64,000 nt of DNA from a virus (lineage: Duplodnaviria > Caudoviricetes), in IMG/VR virus record IMGVR_UViG_3300014205_000175, positions 96,001-160,000 of that record, one strand, 5' to 3'. Made by a program: the position numbers and the translations under genes. Below are positions 3,900-48,071 of this stretch, piece by piece; within the stretch, counting starts at the first letter, position 1; each line of letters starts with the position of its first letter. The notes beneath the pieces are model-generated. The model saw only the letters and a list, made by a program, of their open reading frames with translations. It was not told where the DNA came from and ran no database searches.

Positions 3900-3906
3900 C
3901 CTGCTA

Positions 3907-3942
3907 CTCTCACCTGCCTTCCATAGCGGAGGCAGGTGAGAG
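3907..3942. terminator. bidirectional terminator hairpin between convergent genes
   Basis: CTCTCACCTGCC/GGCAGGTGAGAG inverted repeat. Confidence 0.75.
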
Positions 3943-3956
3943 GGTAATCTATTTTT

Positions 3957-6041
3957 TTAGTATTCGGAGAAATCGGTTACTCTTCCTCGCATGTCAATCG
4001 GAATTTTACTAAGTGATATGTCGTATTGAGTAATACCACTGGTTTTTATGACCAGTCCTACCGTACGCAGCGATGCTGACGGATTACCACTATATGAAAT
4101 CAATTCCATCCAGATGAAATTAGTCATATTGGCACCCGTCAAAGGACCCAAAGCTGCAGGACCATCAGCGGACATTTTGATCAGAACTTGGTCTTTCAGC
4201 GTGTCGAATGTACAGTATCCAGCCATGTATAGCACATTGTTAGGAGCCAAGATTAAATCTGCGACCGCGCCGAGTTTACTGTAAGTATTAACACTGCCAT
4301 CTCCATCAAACTTATACCCCCACAAAGGAGTGCCAGCAGATGTAAATTTAACAATATCTCCAGTGCCCGAAGCAGCATAGATATTACCAGTTGCATCGGT
4401 AGCAAGAGTTTCGAAATTCATCCATGTGGTTATGCCAGTCTTCCATATGAGGTTACCACTAGTATCCCAGCGAGATATAAATGGTTCCGGAGTACCTTCA
4501 ACTCCTCCCCCAACATAGATATTGTCAGAACTATCTACGACTAAAGAGTTGAAAGTTAGTTTAGATGACAACTGAGTACAATACAGCGAGCGTTCCCAAA
4601 CTGTAGCTCCGGCAGAATCGCATTTAATCAAGTATCCAAATTCATCGCCGCTGCCGTCTGTATAATGTCCTGCAGCGTAAACGTTACCTTGACTGTCCGT
4701 AGCCACCCCTTCGAAAGTCGCAGATAACGTATTTCCGACGGTGTTCCTGAACCTAGCCCAGACTACACTGCCACTAGTGGTGTAACGAATAATGGAAAAA
4801 TCCAATCCCGCTACATAAATGTTATCAGCACTATCGATGTAGATAGCGGTCAGCGCAGAATGAATACTCAACGGAGTATAGTTTATGTATTTACCCCATA
4901 CCACTAGACCATCAGAGTTCAGTTTAAGAATAAGCGGATACTTCTGACTACCGCCAGCACTATCTGCGCGATACCCTACTACGTATAGATCACCGGAACT
5001 ATCTAGCGCAATATCGTAGAATTGAGTATTGGCAGCAAACGCGTACTCCCAGACCAGAGTCCCGTCGGGATTATATTTCGCGATATAGGCCTCGTAGATA
5101 GTTGCAACAGCATGATTTTGTCTACCGACAATGTAGATATGACCTGTCGCAGAATCCATCGTCAATGCTGCAATAAACGGCAGTATTGACGACGATGCTG
5201 GCTTCATGTGTTTTAACACCCACCCTTGAGAATGATGGGTAGTGAATGCTACTGTAGCAGACCAGCTAGACCAACCACCCAGTACGCTGTGATGTCGGAC
5301 ACGTGCGTAGTATTGCGTGCTTTCCGTGAGTGCTGTGGTAGGCATCCATTCGGTGAGATTAGCACTGCCTTCGTAAAACTGTACACCGGAGGTGAAATCG
5401 TTACTAGTGGAAATTTCCCATCGTACCTGATCCTGACTCTGTGAGATACCCAGATAGTCAAACGCTGATGATTTGAGTGTAGGATATTCTGACACCTGAG
5501 TGCCGTTTTGTTCAGGTGTGATGATGCTAGGCGTCGCTACACCGGCTTCGAGAACAGTGATAGTGAAAGTCGTATCATCTACCGTAAAGCCGCCATTGGT
5601 GGTTGACGCAGGTGTATAAGTGATCGTAGCACCTGAACGTGTAACCGTGCCATTGGTCGTACTGACAGCATAAGTGTCAAACACATTGTAACCGGTCAGC
5701 ACATAGACGGTGGGTTCATTAAGATAGGTTGCGATCGGTCCTGCCAGCGTTACGCCGCCTTCAGTGATCTCAGTTGGTAATGCACTCACAGGTACTTTCG
5801 CTGTACCGTCAAGTAGTGCCAATGCATTAGCTCCACCGGGCAAGTTAGCTAACGGAATCTTGACTCCAGCATCGAGCTTTACAACTCCATTGGCAACACC
5901 CAGCATGCTACGCGGAATCCAACCCATGCTGGCAGCGGCAGTCGCAGCGGTGGTAGCACCAGTGCCACCGAGGATCATCGGCAGGATGCCGGTTAGACCG
6001 ATATCGTTATAAATAGCCGGATCAAATAAAACTCTAGCCAT
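3957..6041 (-). CDS. virion tail/receptor-binding-like protein: fibre-type N-terminus, Ig/FN3-like domains, beta-propeller
   Basis: Likely start MARVLF at 6041 with AAGGAG RBS; GGTGATTAA and VANGVxxLD motifs; YYARVRHHSVLGGWSSWS FN3-like signature; repeated DSSxNIYVxG blades; ends FSEY. Confidence 0.7.
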   Translation of the reverse strand: MARVLFDPAIYNDIGLTGILPMILGGTGATTAATAAASMGWIPRSMLGVANGVVKLDAGVKIPLANLPGGANALALLDGTAKVPVSALPTEITEGGVTLAGPIATYLNEPTVYVLTGYNVFDTYAVSTTNGTVTRSGATITYTPASTTNGGFTVDDTTFTITVLEAGVATPSIITPEQNGTQVSEYPTLKSSAFDYLGISQSQDQVRWEISTSNDFTSGVQFYEGSANLTEWMPTTALTESTQYYARVRHHSVLGGWSSWSATVAFTTHHSQGWVLKHMKPASSSILPFIAALTMDSATGHIYIVGRQNHAVATIYEAYIAKYNPDGTLVWEYAFAANTQFYDIALDSSGDLYVVGYRADSAGGSQKYPLILKLNSDGLVVWGKYINYTPLSIHSALTAIYIDSADNIYVAGLDFSIIRYTTSGSVVWARFRNTVGNTLSATFEGVATDSQGNVYAAGHYTDGSGDEFGYLIKCDSAGATVWERSLYCTQLSSKLTFNSLVVDSSDNIYVGGGVEGTPEPFISRWDTSGNLIWKTGITTWMNFETLATDATGNIYAASGTGDIVKFTSAGTPLWGYKFDGDGSVNTYSKLGAVADLILAPNNVLYMAGYCTFDTLKDQVLIKMSADGPAALGPLTGANMTNFIWMELISYSGNPSASLRTVGLVIKTSGITQYDISLSKIPIDMRGRVTDFSEY

Positions 6042-14872: not shown

Positions 14873-15973
14873 ATGAAACTCGCCGACGTCATTTTCACTC
14901 GCAGTCAAATTGCTGAACTCGCTATCAGTTCAGAGACCGTTCCTCTACCCGTTCTTGGGTATTATCAAAGCCGACATACTGATGGTGCATCTTTCTATAT
15001 TCGTACTAGTGAAGACGAGTTTAAGAAATGCGCAGAATACGCCAGCATCAACCGTAACTTCAATTTCTGGCCGGATGTAGGATGTGGACAGTGTAACGAG
15101 CTAATATGCAGTGCTTTGTTACTGGGTAATCACGGTGCGGTAATGGATTACATTGATCTGAAAGAAAAACGTAACGATAGCCAGGAGACTAGTCTTTACG
15201 ATGTACTGCTAATCAAAGTAGCTGAGCTGGTATCGATATTCAAACACTACAATATCTTTTATGGCATTAGTAAAGCCCGATATAACCATAACCGTGCACC
15301 AAGAACTATCGGCATTTGCATCCGGCCAGAGATGTCGGTCTCGATGTTTACTCATTACTTCGATCAGATGGAGGGGTTAAATGACGGCGATGAAGATAAA
15401 GCAACTCATCTAACAGGCTTAGGTCCGATCACCGACTATATCATGCAGTGTATGGAAGAGGACCTAGGAGATAGGATGCCCTATGCGGTTCAACACGGCA
15501 GTACGTGGAACTCGGTGATACGGGAGATACAAACACCAGTTCCTAGTCGACACGTTTTAGAGCGACAGTGCATCGATGAGATGTATTCGATCTTAGCCGA
15601 TTACCTGCAACAAAAACGTGTCGACTACCTTAGGTCACGTGGGATGAATGTCGAAACCGTTTTAAACTTCGATCCATTAACCCCAGAACGCTGGGATGAT
15701 ATCATCCAGCGAATAGCCAGAGGGTTTTCAGATTCAGCCGTCGACGAATTGCTAAAACTAGCAACGTTGAAAATGGCTACGGTAGCAAGTGTGTTCGATG
15801 AGAAAACCAAGGGTCTTAGAGAGGATGTTTACGGCGAATTCATGGGTTTCATGCGTGATCGTCTAGGTGATATTGCTGAACGATCTATGTGTGGCGCATA
15901 TAGATGTTTGACCCCTGAGGAAGCTCGTAAAATTATCGACATTGCATCGGCTTTAATAGGAAAAACATCTTGA
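14873..15973 (+). CDS. unknown paralogue family, copy 4
   Basis: LLGNHGAV, HYFD, DYIMQCMEEDLGDRM. Confidence 0.8.
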   Translation: MKLADVIFTRSQIAELAISSETVPLPVLGYYQSRHTDGASFYIRTSEDEFKKCAEYASINRNFNFWPDVGCGQCNELICSALLLGNHGAVMDYIDLKEKRNDSQETSLYDVLLIKVAELVSIFKHYNIFYGISKARYNHNRAPRTIGICIRPEMSVSMFTHYFDQMEGLNDGDEDKATHLTGLGPITDYIMQCMEEDLGDRMPYAVQHGSTWNSVIREIQTPVPSRHVLERQCIDEMYSILADYLQQKRVDYLRSRGMNVETVLNFDPLTPERWDDIIQRIARGFSDSAVDELLKLATLKMATVASVFDEKTKGLREDVYGEFMGFMRDRLGDIAERSMCGAYRCLTPEEARKIIDIASALIGKTS

Positions 15974-16185
15974 GCGAAACCCTCGGTACCGTAGAGTTAG
16001 TGCCATGTGCAGTATGTAGCACAACAGCTAGGGAGGTCATTATGAGCAATATGGTAGGCTGTTACTGCGACAAGTGCGGTACAGGCATCAGTGTGTTGGT
16101 GGAGGTTCGCGAAGATAACTGTCAGGCAGTCAAAAACCAGCTACGCCAAGCTTGGAATAAACTACAAGGCATACGTATATCTTAG
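15970..16185 (+). CDS. Lar (restriction alleviation)-like zinc-finger protein
   Basis: LxPCxxC...CxxCG...AWN pattern typical of the Lar family; TTG start. Confidence 0.55.
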   Translation: MSETLGTVELVPCAVCSTTAREVIMSNMVGCYCDKCGTGISVLVEVREDNCQAVKNQLRQAWNKLQGIRIS

Positions 16186-16305
16186 CCGTATCGTCACTCC
16201 CCATACCCGACATTATAGCCGGGTATGGGGAGTGTATGATTACATGATTTTTTTAAATACGGTTCATATAACATGAGCACCACTGATACTAATAAGGAAC
16301 TCGTC

Positions 16306-17424
16306 ATGAATGATCTCGCATCACTGGTTGTAACGCGCGCTGCTATCAACGATCTTCTAGGTGGAAAATTTGGTGAAGATATCGAGCTCTATGCTTTTAA
16401 AAGTGTCAATGATGACCATGTGCACTTCTTCTCTGCCGTAGACTATAAAGAGTTTAAACAGCGCTACCAGCTGAGCGATGTTTTTCGGCATTTTAATTTC
16501 TGGGGCCGGACACGTCTTTACGATGCCTCGGTGTTTGGTATACGCAATCGTAAAAATCTCCTTGGCAACCATGGCGCTGTGCTCGATTATATGCGCAGCA
16601 AAGAACATTTACCGACTACACAGCAAAAAACCGCACCGACGGTGTATGATGCGATATGGCAAGATTTATATACGCGAGTTTTTGATGGCAGTATGAATAA
16701 CCCCCTAAGGCATATTTTTTACGGCGTGAATAAAAAGCATTACGGCACCGGCTCTCAACGATGTTTTGTTCGCATGCCGGTAACCGATAAAGCTAATCTG
16801 GACATTTTGCACCACTATTTCGATGAGATCTCAGAGACTGAGCATTGTTGCGATAACACTGATAAACATATGAAAGGTTTGGATGACATTGCCGATTATA
16901 TCGTGCAGTGCATGGAGTTGGAGTTAGGGGCAGACATGCAGTTTTTCGCTCATGGTAAAAATACCTGGCAGGCTCTCATGGCAGCTACTCCATCCCAGAC
17001 ACTAAAAGCCGTAGCGGTATCGGCCGAGCAGACAGCTTCTACCGATTACATCTATCCCCTTTTGGTTAAATATCTGTATACTCAGCGTAATCAGGCACTG
17101 ACTGAAAATGGAGTATTAGTTAGCGATATTGACATTCCGATTTTGGATGACGTAACACGAGCTAGTTTTCTAACGCATTTAAATAACGGTCACACCGAAC
17201 TAGCGATCATTGAGTTAATGGACGCTTGCACTATCGAATTGCCTAGCTTGGGAGAAGAGTTCGATCTTAAAACGACTGACCTTAGATGTAACAGTGTCGT
17301 TTTTAGAAAGTTCATCCGCACGCATCTACCTGATGGTGTCCAGAAGAAAGTTCGTTGCTATTTGACAACCGAGACTGCCAAAGAAATCGTTTTGACTCTG
17401 GAAGCTTTGCTCGTTAAACGTTAA
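16306..17424 (+). CDS. unknown paralogue family, copy 5
   Basis: Start MNDLAS with AAGGA RBS; LLGNHGAV, HYFD, DYIVQCMELELGADM, YLTTETAKEIV. Confidence 0.8.
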   Translation: MNDLASLVVTRAAINDLLGGKFGEDIELYAFKSVNDDHVHFFSAVDYKEFKQRYQLSDVFRHFNFWGRTRLYDASVFGIRNRKNLLGNHGAVLDYMRSKEHLPTTQQKTAPTVYDAIWQDLYTRVFDGSMNNPLRHIFYGVNKKHYGTGSQRCFVRMPVTDKANLDILHHYFDEISETEHCCDNTDKHMKGLDDIADYIVQCMELELGADMQFFAHGKNTWQALMAATPSQTLKAVAVSAEQTASTDYIYPLLVKYLYTQRNQALTENGVLVSDIDIPILDDVTRASFLTHLNNGHTELAIIELMDACTIELPSLGEEFDLKTTDLRCNSVVFRKFIRTHLPDGVQKKVRCYLTTETAKEIVLTLEALLVKR

Positions 17425-21898: not shown

Positions 21899-24145
21899 AT
21901 GCCCATATATCAACAGTTGGTGAATTTCACTGAGATGTTCCATCAGCTACGGGAACCACCGATCATTATCAACGATCTGCCTAATTCTACCGAGGAGGAG
22001 CGTGACTACATCACGCAGCTCATCACTACCCATTACAACAGCGACATGTTGTCGATTCTGCCTTCGTGTCGCTGTGGTAAAACCAAAGGCGAGTATGAGA
22101 TTGGGTCATTGTGCGCATACTGCAAGACCCCAGTTAAGTCACATATCTCGGAGGATATCGAACCACTCGTATGGTTCCGTCGTCCGATCGGTGTGGCGCC
22201 GCTGATCAACCCACATATCTACATCATGCTGCGCAATCGGTTTCGTAGGTCAGGTTTTGAAGTACTAGACTGGCTCACTGACACCACCTTCAGCACGAAC
22301 AGCAAACAACCTGCGGTACTCAAAACTATCCTCAACGCAGGCGTGCAACGCGGTTACAACAATTTCATAAACAACTTCGATTTCATCATGGGTGTGATGT
22401 TTTCGATCAAAGACTATAAGTTGAAAAAGGGTAAACGCGATTATCTCAGAGAACTCATCGCTCTTAACCGCGGGCAGCTATTCTCGGATTATATCCCGCT
22501 ACCGAATAAATCGCTGCTGGTGATCGAGAACAACAACCTCGGACGCTATGCGGATAACTCGATGGTGATGGCGATCGATGTGATACGCATGATCACTTCG
22601 ATCGACCGACGCTTTTCCGAACACAATGTGATCCTGCGCGAGAACCGTACCGCCAAAGCGATCACACGACTGGGAGACTTCTATGAGGCGTTCGTATCGA
22701 AGAACATGTCACCTAAGCCGGGCTTGTTCCGTAAGCACATCTTCGGTAGCCGTTCGCATTTCTCGTTTCGAGCAGTTATCACCAGTCTAACTGACCGCCA
22801 TGCGTACGACGAGATCCATGTGCCGTGGGGGATCGGGGTGACGGTGCTGCGTGACCACCTGCTCGCTAAGATGATGCGTATGGGCTATGCGCTCAATGAT
22901 GCGATAGGTATGCTACATGGTCATGTACATAACTATAACGAGATGCTCGATCAGCTTTTAAAGGAGATCATCGCTGAGAGTCCGGATTCTAGTTTAATCG
23001 CAATTTTGCAACGGAATGAAAAGCAGTAACTGTTGTAATATCTAATACGATACTGCGACTGGTTTACTGGGTTCCCTTCAGCAGAAATGCTGTCGACAAA
23101 ACTTCGTGAACTGCTGGAACACCCTGAAGGCTGCGCCACCACAAGCACCCCGAAAGGAGGTGTTGACGGTTTGACAACGGCGCGGATGAAGCACTGTGAA
23201 GTGCGGAAAGGGGCAACCGTAGGCTCTAAGAGCCTCTTTAGCAGCCAAGCTCCTACAGCTCAATAGCCACGGAGAAGGTTCAACGGCCATCGAAAGCACT
23301 GTCACCGACAGGAAGCAAGTAGAGTAGGACTCCTAGCGGGGTCCGAAGTGCGAAGCACCCGACCGAGTGACGTCGAGGGTGAAGATATGGTCTGCTCCTG
23401 TATGAACAGTACAGGCGGGTGTCTCAGCACACCGGGATGATGTAGCGACTCATCTGGACAGTAAGCCAAGTTTATTGCAAGGCTCGGCACAACGCGTCAG
23501 AATCACGAAGATCAAAACCGACCCTACCGATAACACGATTTCAATGCCTATTGAAATCGTACGCGCCCCCAATGCTGATCAACTTTCAGGTCCGGCTGTG
23601 CAGTAATGCATAGTTGTAATCTCCTTAATTGCTGGAACACCCTTAAGGCTGCGCCACCACTGCGAGTCGAAAGACAAAGCCATGGTTCGATAACGGCGCG
23701 GATGATCCGTACGTAAATGCGGTGAAAGGGGCAACCGTAGGCTCTAAGAGCCTCTGTAGCAGCCGATCTCCTAAGGCCTTAGGGCTATGGAGCGGGTTCA
23801 ACGACTAGCCCTTTAGCAAGGCGTAGGACTCCAAGCGGGGTTCGAAACAGGAGACATCCTTAACGGGATGAAGATATAGTCTGCCCCCGTATGAAAGTAC
23901 GGGCGGGTGTCTGAGCACACCGGGACGAGACAGTAGTATAAGCGACTCGTCTGGACAATGGGTTTGATGGGGACGCTTTGAACGTGATCTTAGCGTTAGA
24001 CAAGAAAATGGGGGATTTGATGCAGCCACTGGAGCCGCACTACAACGTGTTCGAAGCTAACCGTCCGCGGGCGATCTCGAACAACGTCGGATTACCCAAA
24101 CCGGTAGTCGCGACGATTGCGCACTGGTTGTCCAAGGGAGCGTAG
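21899..24145 (+). CDS. nvRNAP beta' N-terminal subunit (phiKZ gp55-like), spliced from exons 21899-23017, 23466-23579 and 23963-24145; 471 aa
   Basis: Zn finger CRCG...CAYC; FRKHIFGSR...RAVI; joined exons read LQRN|PSL...APNAD|FDGDALN, restoring the catalytic NADFDGD motif. Confidence 0.92.
23018..23465 (+). mobile_element. group I intron 1 (448 nt, no endonuclease ORF)
   Basis: 5' exon ends in U, intron ends in G; IGS GTTCC (23071-23075) pairs with exon GGAAT; P element TGCTGGAACACCCT; R GTTCAACGGCCA (23278-23289); S AAGATATGGTCT (23382-23393). Confidence 0.9.
23580..23962 (+). mobile_element. group I intron 2 (383 nt, no ORF), inside NAD|FDGD
   Basis: U|...G| boundaries restore the frame; R GTTCAACGACTA (23796-23807); S AAGATATAGTCT (23871-23882). 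Confidence 0.92.
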
Positions 24146-33764: not shown

Positions 33765-36311
33765 ATGACTTATCCAAACGAACTACACTCTGAACTCATG
33801 GGAGTACATGCGCTCAATACCTATGCGCAACACAATTCTTCACCGCGTTCAGTAATGTTCTCGTCACACTTCAGTCAGAAACTCACGATCAAAGGCGGTA
33901 CTGAAAAACGTATTCAAACCGGTGCAGAAGTTGAATTTGCCAAACACACCTATGCCGTACGTATGCCAGTCGATGCCAAGATTATTCAGGTTATCGATTT
34001 GTATCCTACCAATATCGCCGAAGATTCGATTCCTGAAAACCCCGAATCGTATATCGTCTATGAGGATGTGCAAACGCACGAAATCGGTTGTGTAATAGCG
34101 CCTAAGTTTATCTCCCATCATCAGTACTTCGGTTATAAACTCAACCCGGTAAGTAACGCAGTTCCGGGTTCAGTCATCGCCAAAGACACGGTGTTGATGG
34201 ACTCTCCAGCAGTATCGGAGAACGGCGGCTATAAGTATGGCATCGAGCTTAACATGGCGTTGATGACCCAACCGGCAGTCGCTGAAGACGCGATCCTGAT
34301 ATCCGAGGATGTATTAGATCGTTTGTCGTTCAACGTCTATGAACGGCGTACGGTAGAATTCGGTAAGAGCAACTACCCACTGAACCTCTACGGCGACATG
34401 GAGAAATACAAACCCTTCCCTGAAATCGGTGAGTACGTGCGTGATGATGGGGTACTGATGATTCTGCGCGACATGGACACCGATCTGGCACCGGTGGATA
34501 TGAGCGTCTATGACGTCAGAGAGCCTGATTATACTTTCGATAAATCAGTGTATGTCAGAGGTCCGAAAGGCAAAGTGGTATCAATCCGTTCTTACCACAA
34601 CGAGCAACCGACATCTCCTACCCCTACTGGCATGATGGAGTATATGGATAAATACCCGCGAGCAATGCGGCGTTTTTATACACGGGTACTAGAAGTGGAG
34701 AATCGTCTTCGCTACGAGCGTCGCAAAAAGTTCGGTGACGATTATCTGCCGATGAAGCCAGAGTTTCATCAGCTGGTTATTGATGCGATGATGTATCTAG
34801 ACCACAAACCCATTGACAAGAAGGCTCCTCCGCTGACGCTAGAGCATCGTAAAACACCGCTGGACGATTATCGTATCGAGTTCGTTATCGAATACACGAT
34901 CCGTCCGACAGTGGGTTTCAAAATGACAGATATGCATGGTGGTTTAATTGTAGTTCAGTTGGTGTATTGATTGAACTGCATGGCCTTGCCCGGTAGAGAT
35001 GCCGGAACAAAATCTTCCTTAACTGTCTGGAACACCCTTAAGGCTGCGCCACCACATGCATCCTGAAAAGAGATGTAGACGGTCTGACAACGGCGCGGAT
35101 GACCTGTACGTAGTATGTACAGTGAAAGGGGCAACCAGCAGCCAAGCTCCTACAGCTTAACAGCCATGGAGAAGGTTCAACGACTAACCGCTTACCACGG
35201 TGTAGGGCTCCGAGCGGAGTTCGAAATGGGAAGCACCCGACCGAGTGATGTCGAGGGTGAAGATATAGTCTGCCCCCGTATGAAAGTATGGGCGGGTGTC
35301 TGAGCACACCGGGATGAGACAGTAGTATGAGCGACTCGTCTGGACAATGGGAAAGGAGTTATTTGCAAGATCGAAAAACCGGAGAATATGCCGGTAGATG
35401 CTGATGGCAATCGTGCCGATATCGTCATGGCACCTGAATCCACAGTAGCACGAATGAACTTAGGTCGCGTCTATGAGATGTATGTCAGTGGGGCGTGTCG
35501 TGATACGGCTAAAACAGTACGTAAAATGCTCGCCGTAGAAGGCACACGTGAAAATCGTGTGCTGCGTTCACTCGAAGCCGTACAGCAACAAGACCCGCAG
35601 CGCATCGAGCAGACCTACAACTATCTGCTCGGCTTTTATCAACTCATTTCGGAGAAACAGCACGCTTTTTATGCCGCACTCGGGTTACCGCAACGGCTAG
35701 AACATTTAGCTAGCGTGGTGGTCGATGGGATCTATATCTACTGTCCGACCGATAACCAGAAGGAAACTCCTGATATCGTCAAGGACTTGGAGAAGGATTA
35801 CCCGCAGATCTACGGTCCGGTCGCTTATGTCGGTAACTCAGGACAACGTGTTACGACTCAGGCCAAAGTTCGCATCGCGCCGTTGTACATGATGTTGCTA
35901 GAGAAAATCGCCGATGACTGGTCGGCTGTATCTTCGGCGCGACTACAGCACTTTGGGGTATTGGCTCCGATGACTAAGTCGGAAAAGTACCTGCGCCCAT
36001 GGCATAACTCTCCGGTACGTAACATCGGTGAGACCGAAGCACGTATCTACTCGGGCTACTGCGGCCGGGAAGCGATCGCTGAGATGATGGATCGTAGCAA
36101 CAATCCTCTCGCTCATAAGCAGATCGTGCGTAACATCTTAGCTGCTGAGAAACCCGGTAACATCGATGAAGTTATCGATCGCAACATCATACCGTTAGGA
36201 GGCTCGAAACCGTTGCAACTCTTTAACCATTTCTCCATCTGCCAAGGCTGGCGTCCGGTCTATACGCCCGAGTCGCAAATCGACAACACTTTACCACCTA
36301 TCGCGCAGTAA
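33765..36311 (+). CDS. nvRNAP beta subunit (phiKZ gp71-73-like), spliced from exons 33765-34943 and 35352-36311; 712 aa
   Basis: EDAILIS; joined GFKMTDMHGG|KGVICKI (cf. GDKxxxRHGNKG); ADIVMAPESTVARMNLG; YMMLLEK; NIGETE. Confidence 0.92.
34944..35351 (+). mobile_element. group I intron 3 (408 nt, no ORF)
   Basis: U|...G| boundaries restore the frame; Q GGGCAACCAGCAGCC; R GTTCAACGACTA (35175-35186); S AAGATATAGTCT (35260-35271); same 3' end CTGGACAATGGG as intron 2. Confidence 0.92.
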
Positions 36312-36742: not shown

Positions 36743-37096
36743 ATGAAAATTCGCAAACTATCGACTGAAACTCTTAATTTTCTAGACGAAGTTATCGCCG
36801 CTAGTAAAGAACCCAATCTCAGCGAGATCATCGAGAAAGCATATTCGACATATTCTTCACTCATTGACAATGACGGCGATGACAAAGCGATGCAGTCGAT
36901 CTTCAGTGACGTTAAATCGAGCACCGATGGTAGCAGCGTGATGAAAACCGGCTGGCAGCGGATGAACGATATGCTGCAAGGTGGCTTCAGGCGCGGAGAT
37001 TTCGTCATGATCGGCGCACTGCAACACAAGTATAAAACCGATTTGACGTTGTCGCGTGGTGGGATTGTAGAAATACAGCATGAGAAAAGCTCCTAG
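36743..37096 (+). pseudogene. short ORF containing a fragment of a DnaB-like helicase
   Basis: KTGWQRMNDMLQGGFRRGDFVMIGALQHKYKT matches the DnaB TGxxxLxxxxGG...G + Walker A region, then stops. Confidence 0.6.
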
Positions 37097-37718: not shown

Positions 37719-39623
37719 ATGAGTATTCTGTGCGATAAAGAGATCATCTCGTTGTGCGAGGGACCGAACCCGATGATCTCCCCGTTCAAATCTCATCAGG
37801 TACGCTACCGGACCTCGAATGATCCGTCGCGTAACCGTGAACGCATCGTCGATGGTGTGACCGTGTGTGATGAGAAGATCGTCTCGTACGGTACGTCTAG
37901 TTTCGGCTACGATGTACGCTGTGGTAACAAGTTCAAGATCTTCACCAACATCAATTCCACCATCGTCGACCCGAAGAATTTCGATGAGAAATCATTCGTC
38001 GAATACGAAGGCGATTGCTGCATCATCCCGCCCAATTCATTCGCTCTGGCTAATACGGTCGAGTATTTTCGCATTCCGCGCGATATCCTGACGATCTGTG
38101 TCGGTAAATCCACGTACGCTAGGTGCTTTACTGGCGATACCAAGGTAGCGCTGGTGGATGGAACCTCGGCTAGTTTCGAGGATTTGGTCGAAAGGGCGAA
38201 AACAGGTGAGCGCTTCTGGGGCTATAGTGTTGACGATGACGCTAACATCGTAGTAGCAGAACTTACCCAGCCTCGTAAGATCGGTCACGAAAGAATCATC
38301 GAAGTAGAACTGGATAATGGTGAAGTTATTAAGTGTACGCCTGATCATAAGTTCATACTTCTCGACGGCAGTTACGTTGAAGCCCAGCATCTTCAGATTA
38401 ACCAAAGCCTGATGCCTCTCTACCGAGTTGAAACACGCGGTTATGAGGCCGTCGTTCAGCCGACTACGTTTAGTTTCATTAGTACCCATCATTTATCAGA
38501 TGCGTGGAACCTTAAAAACAATGTTTATGAGGCAGGTGAAAACGAACACCGGCACCACGCAAATCATAATCGTCGGGATAACCGCCCTACCAACATCGTA
38601 CGAAAAAACGCATCCGAGCATCTTCGAGAGCATAATGCTGAAAGAATGAATGATGCTGATTATAGGAGTAGGCTCAGCGAGCTGCGTAAAGAAGCTTTCC
38701 GAAAACACGACCAAGATCCTAGTTGGCACCAAGGTTTTGTACAAAGATGCAAGGCGGCTGCAGACGCATTTTGGAATTCTGACGAACACTCGGAGACTCG
38801 TCAGAAGGTTTTGTTTGGGCGGAAGAACTATGGCGCCAACATGTCCGCTGAAGAACGCCAAAAGCGGTCCGAAATAATGCGGGTGCTGATGATGGATGTT
38901 GTCAGAAGGAAGGAAAGCGCCGAGAGATTTAATGCACTGTGGGAAGATCCTGAATTCCGTGCAAACAAAGTTAATCAGGCACGTAGTCTGAATCTCCGTA
39001 CCGAAATCACGGAATGTGAGGTAAGGGACGCTCTTGAAAAAGCAGGAACTCTGCGAGGAGCCGCGCGTTTACTGGATTGTGATCGGACGGTGTTCCGTCG
39101 TTTCCGGGATCTTGTCCTGGAGTTCAAAGATAAAATCCAAGCGGCGAGACTTTCAACTGACGACGTTCTGGATGCTCTGAGGAAAACTGGTTCTGTCAGA
39201 AAGGCTGCAAAATATCTTGACATTGGTCGGAGTAAACTTCTGTCATATAAGGAGGCTGTTAGTGCTTATTATGGTAAACCGGTAGCTGAAAATCATAAGG
39301 TGGCAGCGATCCGGGAAGTGTCGGGGACGCATGATGTTTATTGTCTTAGCGTTCCAGAGCACGGGAATTTCGCACTGGAAGCGGGAGTGTTCGTCAAGAA
39401 CTGCGGGATTATCGTAAACGTAACTCCGTTCGAACCCGAGTGGGAAGGTTTCGTGACTCTGGAGTTCTCCAACACCACTCCGCTACCGGCTAAGATCTAC
39501 GCCAACGAAGGCTGTGCGCAGGTATTGTTTTTCCGTGGTGATGTACCGTGCGAAGTCTCGTATCGTGACCGGGCAGGTAAGTACATGAACCAAGTCGCTA
39601 GCCCTGTTATCCCGCGTGTGTGA
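37719..39623 (+). CDS. dcd: dCTP deaminase containing an intein
   Basis: [28 protein letters not shown]|...|[24 protein letters not shown]; 208 aa after splicing. Confidence 0.93.
38124..39401 (+). mobile_element. intein (426 aa) with HNH-type endonuclease and HTH-like repeats
   Basis: CFTGDTKV start, CTPDHKF block B, VYCLSV block F, ends VKN before Cys+1; [15 protein letters not shown]. Confidence 0.9.
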
Positions 39624-45799: not shown

Positions 45800-46028
45800 G
45801 TCTTTGCTGCATCATACCTGATACAGCTATAGCTACATATTTAGTACTTGAGAAGGGTAGCAGTTTTTAGACACGACATCTTCTCCGAGCTCATAGGCTT
45901 GGAGAAGATGTTAAAAATCACGAGAGGAGTGTCATATAGTATATAGCGTGTAATTTTTAGGTTCATGAGTTATCGGATGGCTGTAGGTACGAATCAGCCC
46001 TTTAATACTAACAAAGCAAGGAGATGAA

Positions 46029-48071
46029 ATGCATCTAGCGAGAGATCTATTAAAATATACCACCGAACAACTATGGGCTAATCTAACTCCGGGAAGATGT
46101 CGCGTGACTTTCGACGATGGCGAAATCATCGAGACCAATGATCGGGAGATTTTGTTCTCGTCGTACTGCTGGGAGTTTCATCGCCAGTACCCCGATACCC
46201 CGCTGCTCAAAAAGCATCACTTGCAGGAGGTGTTGCGCGGCAGGTCGTTCAACGATAGCTCTCACTATAAGCTACTGGAGATCATTTACTGGGATGTCGC
46301 AGCTGTCTATCACCTGCATACGCCGGCAGCGCGTGATCACATTACACGGCTGGTCTACCAGATCACAAACACTATCTATAACGATCTCACTCATCGCTTA
46401 GAAGAATACGTGGTGTCGCTGGACATTCTGGACTTTTTGGAGGCAGCCGATAGCCCTAATATTAGTGCGGCCTTGGACGCCATGCAACCCAACCCCAAAT
46501 CGATCGAGCATACTTATGAAGTGATCGGTGAGGAGCTAGGTAAGAGCGCTACGCTGGCACATAACGCACTAGCGCTTTTTACGCGCTCTGGGGTAGTCAA
46601 ACAAAGCCAGGTGTTGCAGTGCATCGGTCCGCGTGGTTATGTCACTGAAGTCGATGGCAGTCACATGGAGGTGCCGATTCTACGTAGCTTCACCAAAGGC
46701 ATGCGTAGTTTATATAACATGGCGTTAGAGTCGCGGGCTGCTAGTAAGAGTCTGTATTTCTCCGAGGCACCGCTACAAGACAGCGAATACTTCTCCCGTA
46801 AACTGCAGCTCATGACGATGGCAGTGGAATATCTCGAACGAGGCCCGATTGCGGCTCCGGGGGAAAACACCATGGGCATCGCACTGGGTAACTGCTGCAG
46901 CACTGATTATCTCGTGTGGCGGGTGCGTGGCGAAGAGCGTGTTAACGATGAAGTCATCTACAAAGGCGATTTGGAGTTTCTCGACGGTAAGTACTACGTT
47001 AACGAGACGACGGGATTGCTGGAACGACTCAACCGGTCGGACTATCATCTCGTAGGTAAAACCATCAAGCTGCGTACGGTGCTAGGATGCAAACACCATG
47101 ACAGTCACGGTGTATGTAGTGTGTGCTTCGGTGGGCTAGGGGATAACATCTCGCCTTATGCCAACTTGGGTCATATTTGTAGCGCGATGATGACGCAGCA
47201 GTCTACTCAGTCAGTGCTCTCGACCAAACACTTAATGACTAGTAGCGTTGTGGAAGCCATTATGCTAACCGATCTGGCACGACGTTTCTTCAAAGTCGGT
47301 AGCAAAGGTGATACCTATCTGCTGCTACCCGAGTGGCGTAATAAGCCTTTCAAACTTATCGTTTCGTCACAAGAGGCTTATGGTCTTACCGACATTGCTC
47401 TAGTCGATAACGTAGTAGACATCAACCCATCGCGTATTTCGGCAGTCGAGATCGTTGAAGTGATGGTGGGTACTGATGAAGCCCACGAGCGCCACCCGAT
47501 CATCGTTTCACATCACAGTCGCAAAGCGGTTTTCACCAGTGAGCTACTCCAGCATTTAAAGACTTATCACTGGCAGACCGATGGCACTGGTAACTTCGTT
47601 ATCGATTTTAGCCACTGGGATTATTCGAAACCTATTCTGCGTTTACCGCAAAAGGAGTATAGCTATGCTAAGCACGCTAGCGAGATCTCGCGTATTGTCG
47701 AGTCTCGAGTCAAAGACATCACGATGCGTAGCAAGCCCGATTCACCCAAAGCCACACTGATGGAGCTCTTCGAGTTGGTGAATTCCAAACTGTCGGTCAA
47801 CATCGCATGTTTGGAAGTGATCATTTACACTGTCATGTGTAAGAACACCACTGACGATAACTACGCGCTGGTGCGTAACGCTGAGAATGCTGGGCTGGGA
47901 GTTATTGATCCTATCATCTCTGGACGGTCGTTGTCAGCAGTCTACGCTTATGAGTCGCAGTACAAAGTCATTCTCGACCCGAAGTCGTTCTTCCCGCAAA
48001 ACCGTAACGACCATCTGCTCGACGTATTTATCGCGCCGGCTGAGGTAGTAGCACACTACAAATCCCGTTAA
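46029..48071 (+). CDS. nvRNAP beta' subunit, second part (phiKZ gp74-like)
   Basis: QCIGPRG, PILRSFTKG, bridge-helix-like SEYFSRKL, LRTVLGC...GVCSVCFG Zn site, TQSVLSTKH trigger loop. Confidence 0.9.
   Translation: MHLARDLLKYTTEQLWANLTPGRCRVTFDDGEIIETNDREILFSSYCWEFHRQYPDTPLLKKHHLQEVLRGRSFNDSSHYKLLEIIYWDVAAVYHLHTPAARDHITRLVYQITNTIYNDLTHRLEEYVVSLDILDFLEAADSPNISAALDAMQPNPKSIEHTYEVIGEELGKSATLAHNALALFTRSGVVKQSQVLQCIGPRGYVTEVDGSHMEVPILRSFTKGMRSLYNMALESRAASKSLYFSEAPLQDSEYFSRKLQLMTMAVEYLERGPIAAPGENTMGIALGNCCSTDYLVWRVRGEERVNDEVIYKGDLEFLDGKYYVNETTGLLERLNRSDYHLVGKTIKLRTVLGCKHHDSHGVCSVCFGGLGDNISPYANLGHICSAMMTQQSTQSVLSTKHLMTSSVVEAIMLTDLARRFFKVGSKGDTYLLLPEWRNKPFKLIVSSQEAYGLTDIALVDNVVDINPSRISAVEIVEVMVGTDEAHERHPIIVSHHSRKAVFTSELLQHLKTYHWQTDGTGNFVIDFSHWDYSKPILRLPQKEYSYAKHASEISRIVESRVKDITMRSKPDSPKATLMELFELVNSKLSVNIACLEVIIYTVMCKNTTDDNYALVRNAENAGLGVIDPIISGRSLSAVYAYESQYKVILDPKSFFPQNRNDHLLDVFIAPAEVVAHYKSR

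What the first reader, a model, noticed from the sequence alone, without database searches (positions are those of the whole stretch)
34944..35351. Third intron of the same family in the active-centre HGG|KG motif of nvRNAP beta
Seen: a 408-nt insert between ...TDMHGG and KGVICKI; removing it fuses ORFs 33765 and 35388 into 712 aa. It has the same P/Q/R/S core as the two beta' introns and the same last 12 nt as intron 2. Known: the motif corresponds to RHGNKG of bacterial RpoB, and the phiKZ gp71-73 gene is also intron-split but carries an endonuclease gene. Here no endonuclease ORF is present. The 5' splice site is chosen from frame and the U|G rule; P1 pairing is weaker than for intron 1.
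Basis: partly seen in the sequence, partly recalled or inferred. Interest (0 to 1): 0.8.

Follow-up and report, generated by a model that had tools for sequence, protein, structure and literature searches.

The report
Group I intron in phage RNA polymerase
A 408-base self-splicing-type (group I) intron without an endonuclease gene interrupts the catalytic HGG|KG motif of the non-virion RNA polymerase beta gene of an uncultured phiKZ-like jumbo phage; phiKZ has an intron at the same site, so this is real but ordinary for the clade.

Summary
Window 34944-35351 is a complete group I intron: Rfam RF00028 gives 72.9 bits, E 1.4e-16, over the full model. Removing it joins 393 + 319 codons into a 712-aa homologue of phiKZ nvRNAP subunit gp71-73.

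The junction is colinear with three references:
- the solved phiKZ chain, HGG393-K394;
- PHROG profile 3295, positions 403|404;
- the uninterrupted gene of the closest relative, HGD-KG.

A P1-P9.2 structure with P7.1/P7.2 is supported by covariation across 12 related introns: 88% of cells paired against 38-46% with slid partners, and 0 of 500 shuffles as good. No endonuclease ORF is present.

The intron is 78-79% identical to the two beta' introns of the same genome, but only 56-61% identical to same-site introns of other phages. Each copy carries a guide sequence that matches its own exon.

Among relatives the site is empty in 11 loci, holds an endonuclease-bearing intron in 4 lineages, and holds an ORF-less intron in the rest. 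Three lineages carry the intron 3 nt upstream.

The exact 5' register (U34943 or U34940) rests on protein conservation. Verdict: new member of a known kind, of moderate interest.

The parts
33765..34943 (+). Exon 1 of the nvRNAP beta (phiKZ gp71-73-like) gene, 393 codons ending ...FKMTDMHGG
   Evidence: PDB 7OGP chain C residues 291-393. PHROG 3295 profile positions 7-403. Synteny with phiKZ gp68-gp69-gp70-gp71.
34944..35351 (+). Group I intron, 408 nt, with no ORF that has a family match
   Evidence: Rfam RF00028 at 72.9 bits, E 1.4e-16. Boundaries come from U(-1), the terminal G, the reading frame, the empty-site allele L007 and the tail shared with intron 2. Pfam is negative for internal ORFs.
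34941..34944 (+). P1 5' strand (G G U | U); the preferred 5' splice site is after U34943
   Evidence: Pairs with G34982-C34985. The register was chosen by protein colinearity. The alternative GGU at 34938-34940 pairs with the same guide.
34949..34980 (+). P1 extension hairpin (12 bp, loop GGUGUAUU)
   Evidence: Present in the MFE folds. KTN4 has an analogous hairpin in the P1 loop.
34982..34989 (+). Internal guide sequence (G G C C U U G C); the wobble G is G34983
   Evidence: In the three-intron and twelve-intron alignments it lies in the same column block as the guides of introns 1 and 2 and of ten related introns. Each guide is complementary to its own 5' exon.
34990..35005 (+). P2 hairpin (CCGGUA / UGCCGG, loop GAGA)
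   Evidence: helix 2; all six pairs have changes on both sides.
35014..35019 (+). P3 5' strand, pairs with 35228-35233
   Evidence: 100% of cells paired in 12 introns, and all six pairs have compensatory changes (helix 3).
35024..35140 (+). P4-P5 domain: P4 35024-35030 with 35135-35140; P5 35035-39 with 35127-31; P5a/b/c-like extension 35044-35122
   Evidence: Rfam alignment, MFE folds, and pair counts for helices 4-7. The extension is shared only with introns 1 and 2.
35141..35176 (+). P6, P6a and P6b
   Evidence: helices 8 and 9.
35182..35186 (+). P7 5' strand (GACUA), pairs with 35266-35270 (UAGUC); pseudoknot that holds the guanosine-binding site
   Evidence: 100% paired in 12 introns. Intron 1 and L018 have a compensatory U-A to C-G change (helix 10).
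35187..35222 (+). P7.1 (35187-35201) and P7.2 (35205-35222) hairpins, the mark of subgroup IA
   Evidence: Helices 11-13: 90-92% paired, and most pairs have changes on both sides.
35228..35233 (+). P3 3' strand
35235..35258 (+). P8 hairpin
   Evidence: Helix 14: 100% paired, and 3 of 4 pairs are compensatory.
35259..35270 (+). J8/7 (GAAGAUAU) and the P7 3' strand
   Evidence: GATAT and GTCT are invariant in all 12 introns.
35275..35340 (+). P9 (35275-35292, GAAA loop), P9.1 (35295-35310) and P9.2 (35313-35340)
   Evidence: Helices 15-18. In P9.2 all six pairs have changes on both sides.
35341..35351 (+). 3' tail UGGACAAUGGG with the terminal G at 35351
   Evidence: Identical to the tail of intron 2, whose 3' splice site is fixed by NAD|FDGD. 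GGACAA recurs in most related introns.
35352..36311 (+). Exon 2, 319 codons starting KGVICKIEKPENMPVD
   Evidence: PDB 7OGP chain C residues 394-699, E 3.3e-62; E. coli RpoB from residue 1073. Pfam RNA_pol_Rpb2_6. PHROG 3295 profile positions 404-694.
23018..23465 (+). Paralogous intron 1 in the nvRNAP beta' gene (QRN|PSLL)
   Evidence: Rfam 32.9 bits; nhmmer 451 bits with the family profile; 79% identical to this intron over the core.
23580..23962 (+). Paralogous intron 2 in the nvRNAP beta' gene (NAD|FDGD)
   Evidence: Rfam 64.1 bits; 78% identical to this intron over the core; last 22 nt identical.

Best explanation
Window 34944-35351 is an ORF-less group I intron of the IA type. It has P1 with an extension hairpin, P2, P3-P9, P7.1/P7.2, a P5abc-like arm, and P9.1/P9.2. 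It interrupts the gene for the C-terminal-half beta subunit of the non-virion RNA polymerase (the orthologue of phiKZ gp71-73) in an uncultured jumbo phage.

Inferred mechanism: the guide G34983-C-C pairs with the exon end G-G-U34943 to form the U.G wobble. Exogenous guanosine bound in P7 attacks after U34943. The terminal G35351 then enters the same site and the exons are ligated. This restores ...TDMHGG-KGVICK..., the loop that carries the catalytic lysine equivalent to E. coli RpoB K1073, in a 712-aa protein.

The intron is one of three paralogous copies in the genome. Each carries a guide that matches its own target. It sits at a site that is occupied by related introns, with or without a homing endonuclease gene, or is empty, in related phages. 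It is therefore best read as an endonuclease-free stage of the usual mobile-intron cycle.

Shown: intron identity, structure with covariation, junction colinearity, paralogy, and distribution among relatives. Inferred: that splicing occurs, and the exact nucleotide register.
For: - Rfam RF00028 matches the full model at 72.9 bits, E 1.4e-16.
- Of 70 proposed pairs on 12 related introns, 88.3% of cells are paired against 38-46% with slid partners. 49 pairs have changes on both sides against 12-19 for slid partners, and 0 of 500 shuffles reach the observed values.
- Exon 1 ends at phiKZ gp71-73 residue 393 and exon 2 starts at residue 394 of the solved chain 7OGP_C.
- PHROG 3295 profile positions 403|404 are contiguous.
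- The closest relative, L007 (74% identity), and ten other homologues are uninterrupted, reading HG[GD]-K[GS] with no extra residue.
- phiKZ, KTN4, PhiPA3, L008, L010 and L013 carry a group I intron at the identical position.
- Native phiKZ nvRNAP contains a 74-kDa gp71-73 polypeptide, so the same-site intron is removed in vivo (PMC4666361).
- The guide lies in the same alignment block as those of introns 1 and 2, and each is complementary to its own exon: GGUUCC/GGAAU, GGUC/GAU, GGCC/GGU.
- The 3' tail is identical to that of intron 2, whose 3' splice site is unambiguous.
- There is no family match for any internal ORF.
Against:
- Exon pairing in P1 is only 3 bp plus the wobble, and no convincing P10 was found.
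- The alternative register that pairs the guide with GGU 34938-34940 is 3.7 kcal/mol more stable in the isolated 5' region.
- Rfam's own alignment puts P1 in yet another register, U34945.G34973.
- One nanopore transcriptome study saw no spliced reads for the predicted phiKZ introns (PMC10914365), although the fused protein is found in the native enzyme.
- The MFE z-score of the whole intron is modest at -1.79.
Confidence: 0.87

Rival explanations
1. The element is the same self-splicing intron, but the 5' cut falls in another register of the U-rich, repeat-bearing exon end. A cut after U34940 would give HG-KG (711 aa). A cut after U34945 or U34944, with G35350 or G35349 as the terminal G, would give HGGLKG or HGGWKG (713 aa). 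Any of these could be the main product or a minor one.
For: - The U34940 register has 6 pairs around one mismatch (GCAUGGU / GCCUUGC) and is more stable, -29.6 against -25.9 kcal/mol.
- Rfam aligns U34945 opposite G34973.
- All four combinations satisfy both U(-1) and a terminal G, and all keep the reading frame.
- Related introns do sit 3 nt upstream in three lineages.
Against: - Every one of 21 homologous loci, the PHROG profile, the phiKZ structure and bacterial RpoB have exactly H/x-G-x-K with no insertion or deletion.
- The Rfam register needs the bases that form the 12-bp P1 extension hairpin, and it is the least stable at -21.2 kcal/mol.
- The upstream-site introns carry a full GGN codon after their terminal G, which this intron lacks.
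Confidence: 0.08
2. The insert is a decayed intron that no longer splices. The beta C-terminal half would then be made as two polypeptides that assemble, adding one more split to an already multi-split jumbo-phage polymerase.
For: - Jumbo-phage RNAP subunits are naturally split (PMC7598289).
- P1 is weak and there is no P10.
- An ATG with a nearby GGAG lies at 35388.
Against: - All core positions that are invariant in 12 related introns are intact here, and all helices pair.
- The 35388 start would drop KGVICKIEKPEN, including the conserved lysine equivalent to RpoB K1073. That Met is itself the conserved (E/D)MP residue.
- None of the 21 related loci has a split at this site without an intron.
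- Three copies in essential genes keep 77% mean column identity, with compensatory changes.
Confidence: 0.03
3. The Rfam match is a chance or non-intron structured RNA, such as a regulatory element between two genes.
For: None beyond the modest MFE z-score.
Against: - E 1.4e-16 over the full model.
- Covariation supports the proposed structure.
- The flanking ORFs are two halves of one conserved protein, joined without a gap.
Confidence: 0.01

Closest known systems
Group I intron between phiKZ genes 71 and 73 (with ORF gp72); nvRNAP subunit gp71-73 (PDB 7OGP chain C)
   Same: Same host gene (34.9-37% amino-acid identity; same gp68-gp69-gp70-beta synteny). The insertion point is identical, after the GGU of HGG and before the K codon. 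The 5' exon end GGU pairs with a GCC guide in both. Both have an IA-type core with P7.1/P7.2 and a P9.2 followed by a short tail.
   Different: phiKZ carries a 316-aa ORF in the P1/P2 region whose HNH_3 and NUMOD4 matches fall just under Pfam's cut-offs, giving a 1218-nt intron. Here there is no such ORF and the intron is 408 nt. Core identity is only about 57%. This intron also has a P5abc-like arm that the phiKZ-type intron lacks.
ORF-less introns at the same site in Pseudomonas phages KTN4/PA7 (307 nt) and PhiPA3 (450 nt)
   Same: ORF-less group I introns at HGG|KG in the orthologous gene, with Rfam scores of 79-84 bits. PhiPA3 shares the P9.1 sequence and the CUGGACAA tail.
   Different: 57-61% core identity, and different peripheral arms. 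These sit in cultured Pseudomonas phages. In GenBank they are annotated only as gaps or a misc_feature.
Multiple closely related group I introns within one phage genome (Staphylococcus phage Twort orf142 with three introns; T4 td/nrdB/sunY). This comparison is from my own knowledge of the literature. Landthaler & Shub appear only as references in PMC12908238.
   Same: Several IA-type introns of one lineage sit in essential genes of one phage. Some lack an ORF, and exons between them can be short.
   Different: Here the targets are catalytic motifs of a phage multisubunit RNA polymerase. The copies are 70-79% identical to each other, and their guides differ to match each target.
PhiPA3 gp210 intron in the vRNAP beta gene (Birkholz et al. 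2024, PMC11620839)
   Same: A group I intron at a catalytic motif of a jumbo-phage RNAP beta-like gene, in the same clade of phages.
   Different: That intron lies in the virion RNAP and encodes an active HNH nicking endonuclease that acts in phage-phage competition. The present intron has no endonuclease.

Membership tests
Group I intron (Rfam RF00028) | Conserved catalytic core (P3-P9 with the P3/P7 pseudoknot) scoring above the curated threshold | tested here: met
   72.9 bits against a gathering score of 50, model positions 1-253, E 1.4e-16. All helices map and pair.
Group I intron (Rfam RF00028) | Base pairs supported by covariation in related sequences | tested here: met
   12 introns: 88.3% of cells paired, 49 of 70 pairs with changes on both sides, 0 of 500 shuffles as good, slid controls 38-46%.
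Group I intron (Rfam RF00028) | U at the last exon position, forming a U.G wobble with an internal guide in P1 | tested here: met
   U34943 pairs with G34983, flanked by G-C and G-C. The guide lies in the same alignment block as in 11 relatives. The register is ambiguous with U34940.
Group I intron (Rfam RF00028) | Terminal guanosine at the 3' splice site | tested here: met
   G35351. The tail is identical to that of intron 2, where the site is fixed by NAD|FDGD.
Group I intron (Rfam RF00028) | Removal restores an uninterrupted, conserved reading frame | tested here: met
   712 aa, colinear with 7OGP_C residues 393|394, PHROG 3295 positions 403|404, and intron-less homologues.
Group I intron (Rfam RF00028) | Guanosine-dependent self-splicing | not testable with these tools
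Subgroup IA (phage-type) group I introns | Extra hairpins P7.1 and P7.2 between P7 and P3' | tested here: met
   35187-35201 and 35205-35222; 90-92% paired with compensatory changes (helices 11-13). Assignment to IA1 or IA2 was not tested.
Mobile intron with homing endonuclease | An intron-encoded endonuclease ORF (HNH, GIY-YIG, LAGLIDADG and the like) | tested here: not met
   Internal ORFs of 59-89 aa have no Pfam match at E up to 0.1. Same-site relatives in phiKZ and L013 do carry such ORFs.
Orthologue of the phiKZ gene 71/73 intron | Same insertion position in the orthologous gene | tested here: met
   GGU|...G|AAR in both.
Orthologue of the phiKZ gene 71/73 intron | Closer in sequence to same-site introns than to introns at other sites | tested here: not met
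   56-61% identical to same-site introns against 78-79% to the beta' introns of its own genome. Descent by vertical inheritance at this site is therefore not shown.

The most novel reading that the evidence does not exclude
The three endonuclease-free introns are recent intragenomic copies of one ribozyme. They moved between unrelated catalytic motifs of the nvRNAP genes by retargeting of the guide sequence, through reverse splicing or ectopic recombination rather than endonuclease homing. They persist because occupying these sites protects the polymerase genes from intron-encoded nickases of co-infecting jumbo phages. The 3-nt 'slid' copies in relatives and the four tandem introns in a related beta' gene would be further products of the same process.
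Probability: 0.15. Interest if true: 0.7.

Novelty: new member of a known kind. Interest (0 to 1): 0.33.

Why it matters
For annotation, the two ORFs 33765 and 35388 are one gene. Gene callers will otherwise report a truncated beta subunit, a fragment and a 'gap', as in several GenBank jumbo-phage records.

For biology, the finding adds an uncultured, distant lineage (35-42% protein identity to known phages) to the set of phiKZ-like phages whose RNA polymerase genes are colonised at catalytic motifs by one intron family. Across 21 loci the same site is seen in every stage: empty, endonuclease-bearing and endonuclease-free.

Three observations give material for studying how group I introns change target without an endonuclease:
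- introns within a genome are more alike than introns at the same site in different genomes;
- each copy has a guide matched to its own exon;
- the intron sits at two positions 3 nt apart on a GGUGGU repeat.

None of this is unexpected in kind.

Tried and rejected
- Megablast of the gene region against GenBank phages found no match; the phage has no close cultured relative.
- The 27-nt pattern specific to this sub-family found nothing outside the genome.
- Rfam's own P1 register (U34945.G34973) was rejected. It competes with the 12-bp hairpin, is the least stable, and would insert a residue.
- The IGS candidate UUGCC at 34986-34990 was rejected. It would sit 2 nt from P2, whereas the guides of introns 1 and 2 sit 7 nt away.
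- A P10 pairing with the 3' exon AAAGGA was looked for by eye. None was found for the preferred register.
- The conserved GGAC of the 3' tail was compared by eye with the guide regions for a possible pairing. It is not conserved across the three copies.
- Pfam on internal ORFs and on the three small ORFs downstream (36371, 36743, 37420) found no endonuclease.
- nhmmer over the whole 203-kb record found no fourth copy.
- A covariance model of the family was not built, because the alignment exceeds the 400-column limit. MAFFT plus explicit pair counting was used instead.
- No structure prediction of the joined protein was run, because the fused sequence has no single reference.
Full report
**Observation**

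The window reads ...ACA GAT ATG CAT GGT GGT | TTAATTGTAG ... CTGGACAATGGG | AAA GGA GTT ATT TGC AAG. ORF 33765 continues nine codons into the insert and stops. Cutting at 34943/35352 leaves 393 codons ending FKMTDMHGG and 319 codons beginning KGVICKIEKPENMPVD, for 712 aa in total.

Rfam's group I intron model RF00028 matches 34936-35292 from its first to its last position, at 72.9 bits (gathering score 50) and E 1.4e-16 for the whole window. The same search finds the intron at 23570-23903 (64.1 bits). A permissive search adds 23045-23415 at 32.9 bits.

**Host gene**

- Exon 2 carries Pfam RNA_pol_Rpb2_6.
- Against the PDB, the tail of exon 1 aligns to residues 291-393 of chain C of the phiKZ non-virion RNA polymerase (7OGP, 'PHIKZ071', 700 aa), ending FKMTDFHGG393. 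Exon 2 aligns from K394 to residue 699 at E 3.3e-62.
- The first residue of exon 2 aligns with residue 1073 of E. coli RpoB. This is the lysine of RHGNKG, one of the two conserved DPBB lysines named for phiKZ in PMC8287921.
- PHROG 3295 matches exon 1 over profile positions 7-403 and exon 2 over 404-694.
- The three upstream ORFs match phiKZ gp68, gp69 and gp70 in order.

The gene is therefore the orthologue of phiKZ gp71-73. The genome is an IMG/VR record of 203 kb, estimated 75% complete, with no close cultured relative. The best GenBank protein match is Burkholderia phage FLC9 at 42%.

**Empty and occupied sites elsewhere**

Twenty IMG/VR loci and four GenBank loci encode homologues. In eleven the gene is uninterrupted. 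These include the closest relative L007 (74% identity in exon 2), which reads ...LHGD KGVICAV. All of them have H/x-G-x directly followed by K-G/S.

Six lineages carry a group I intron at exactly this position (GGU|...G|AAR): the window, phiKZ/KTN4/PA7, PhiPA3, L008, L010/L011 and L013.

Three lineages (L009, L012, L018/L024) carry a related intron 3 nt upstream (CAC GGU|...G|GGN AAR). This is fixed by stop codons, U(-1) and the terminal G.

ORFs inside the intron:
- phiKZ: a 316-aa ORF with HNH_3 and NUMOD4 matches, both just under Pfam's cut-offs;
- L013: an ORF with I-HmuI-type NUMOD domains;
- L008 and L010: a 265-aa ORF with no Pfam match;
- the window, KTN4/PA7, PhiPA3, L009, L012 and L018/24: no ORF.

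KTN4 and phiKZ belong to one species and differ by the presence of gp72 (307 against 1218 nt). This is the usual picture of a mobile intron seen at different stages.

Native phiKZ nvRNAP contains a 74-kDa gp71-73 polypeptide (PMC4666361), so the same-site intron is removed in vivo. One nanopore study reported no spliced reads for the predicted phiKZ introns (PMC10914365).

**Structure**

I mapped the following helices onto the sequence, starting from the Rfam alignment and the folds:
- P1: 34941-43 with 34983-85
- P1 extension hairpin: 12 bp, 34949-34980
- P2
- P3: 35014-19 with 35228-33
- P4
- P5 with a P5abc-like arm
- P6, P6a and P6b
- P7: 35182-86 with 35266-70
- P7.1 and P7.2
- P8
- P9 with a GAAA loop
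- P9.1 and P9.2
- an 11-nt tail ending in G35351

I then counted these pairs on a MAFFT alignment of 12 related introns (A2):
- 88.3% of 809 cells form standard pairs, against 38-46% when the 3' partners are slid by 1-3 columns.
- 49 of 70 pairs show changes on both sides, against 12-19 for slid partners.
- None of 500 column shuffles reaches any observed measure.

P3, P8, P7.2 and P9.2 are especially rich in compensatory changes. P7.1 and P7.2 place the intron in subgroup IA, the usual phage type. The MFE z-score alone is modest at -1.79.

**Splice sites**

The 3' tail is identical over its last 22 nt to the tail of intron 2. In intron 2 the 3' site is fixed, because only GAU|...GGG|UUU restores NADFDGD. 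By homology the terminal G here is G35351.

At the 5' end, each of the 12 introns has a G just upstream of P2, in the same alignment block, followed by the complement of its own exon:
- intron 1: GGUUCC for GGAAU
- intron 2: GGUC for GAU
- this intron: GGCC for GGU
- L008 and L010: GCCACC for GGUGGU
- the upstream-site introns: GCCG for CGGU

This supports both the P1 model and the idea that the guide has been retargeted in the paralogues. The exon part of P1 here is 3 bp plus the wobble, the same as in phiKZ/KTN4 and PhiPA3.

Because the exon ends GGUGGU, the same guide can pair one triplet upstream. There three more pairs (GCA/UGC) make the helix 3.7 kcal/mol more stable. That register would delete one glycine (HG-KG). 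Registers at U34944 or U34945 would insert W or L.

Only 34943/35351 reproduces the spacing that is invariant in 21 homologous loci, the PHROG profile, the phiKZ structure and RpoB. I therefore take it as the functional junction, at about 0.8 for the exact register. The preference rests on protein conservation, not on RNA data.

**Relation to the other introns**

Over the core, this intron is 78% and 79% identical to introns 2 and 1 of the same genome, but 56-61% identical to the same-site introns of other phages. The two introns of the L012 phage are likewise 74% identical to each other and 56-58% identical to this one.

A family profile finds only these three copies in the 203-kb record. A 27-nt motif of the shared P4-P5a region finds nothing else in IMG/VR.

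The P9.1 motif finds 33 stretches on about 20 mostly large (above 100 kb) viral contigs. These lie in homologues of the beta', beta and beta'-C nvRNAP genes, of two further genes that PHROGs labels 'RNA polymerase beta subunit' (probably the virion enzyme), and of a DnaB-like helicase gene.

Sequence similarity therefore tracks the genome rather than the site. That fits intragenomic spread or gene conversion among copies, but the mechanism is not shown.

**Rivals**

A decayed, non-splicing insert that yields two polypeptides is unlikely, for four reasons:
- Every family-invariant core position is intact.
- No relative is split here without an intron.
- The only downstream start (35388) would remove the conserved lysine.
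- That start is itself the conserved Met of the (E/D)MP motif.

A chance RNA match is excluded by the score, the covariation and the seamless protein junction.

**Verdict**

This is a genuine group I intron, a new member of a known kind at a known site. What remains open is direct proof of splicing, the 5' register, and how the three copies arose.

Noticed in passing
L155:2694-4150 (IMGVR_UViG_3300046328_000321, the phage of L009): Four group I introns above the Rfam gathering score (68-88 bits) lie within about 1.46 kb of the beta' (gp55-like) gene of a related phage, so the exons between them must be very short. L173 on the same contig has two adjacent introns in another RNAP gene.
   Followed up: partly
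L009:2627-2997, L012:2587-2997, L018:2694-2997, L024:2691-2997: In three lineages the same intron family sits 3 nt upstream (HG|GKG instead of HGG|KG). L009 (upstream site, ORF-less) and L010 (this site, with ORF) are 75% identical. This looks like sliding of the intron on the GGU GGN repeat.
   Followed up: partly
window 37719-39623 (+): A 634-aa ORF has a dCTP deaminase-like domain (E 1.3e-26) interrupted by an intein splicing domain (E 1.3e-17). It also has a weak HNH_3 match, below the cut-off.
   Followed up: no
window 36743-37096 (+): A 117-aa ORF matches only positions 33-95 of the divergent DnaB-like ATPase family (PF20307, E 7.7e-16), so it looks like a fragment. A full DnaB-like helicase lies at G000:C1:3009-4610, and its homologues in four related contigs carry an intron of this family.
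   Followed up: no
window 23018-23465 (+): Intron 1 scores only 32.9 bits with Rfam, below the gathering score, although it is plainly a paralogue (79% identical to this intron; 451 bits with the family profile). Gathering-threshold scans will miss such copies.
   Followed up: partly
window 45987-48068 (+): The gp74-like nvRNAP subunit gene (PHROG 3015) is uninterrupted here. Its homologue in the L012 phage carries an intron of the same family (L012:5567-5892, Rfam 94.4 bits).
   Followed up: partly
L005 (KTN4) 3906-4212 and L006 (phiKZ) 15455-16672: Two phages of one species differ at this site only by the presence of the gp72 ORF inside the intron (307 against 1218 nt). GenBank annotates neither as an intron, and PhiPA3 gene 065 is annotated as a 4.6-kb misc_feature.
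   Followed up: partly
L157 and L171 (IMGVR_UViG_3300001594_000002, the closest relative, same contig as L007): The closest relative lacks the intron at HGx|KG. It does carry family members elsewhere: profile hits in a 1431-aa RNAP beta-like gene homologue (L171), and an Rfam hit of 57.5 bits next to the beta' region (L157). Site occupancy therefore differs even between near relatives.
   Followed up: no
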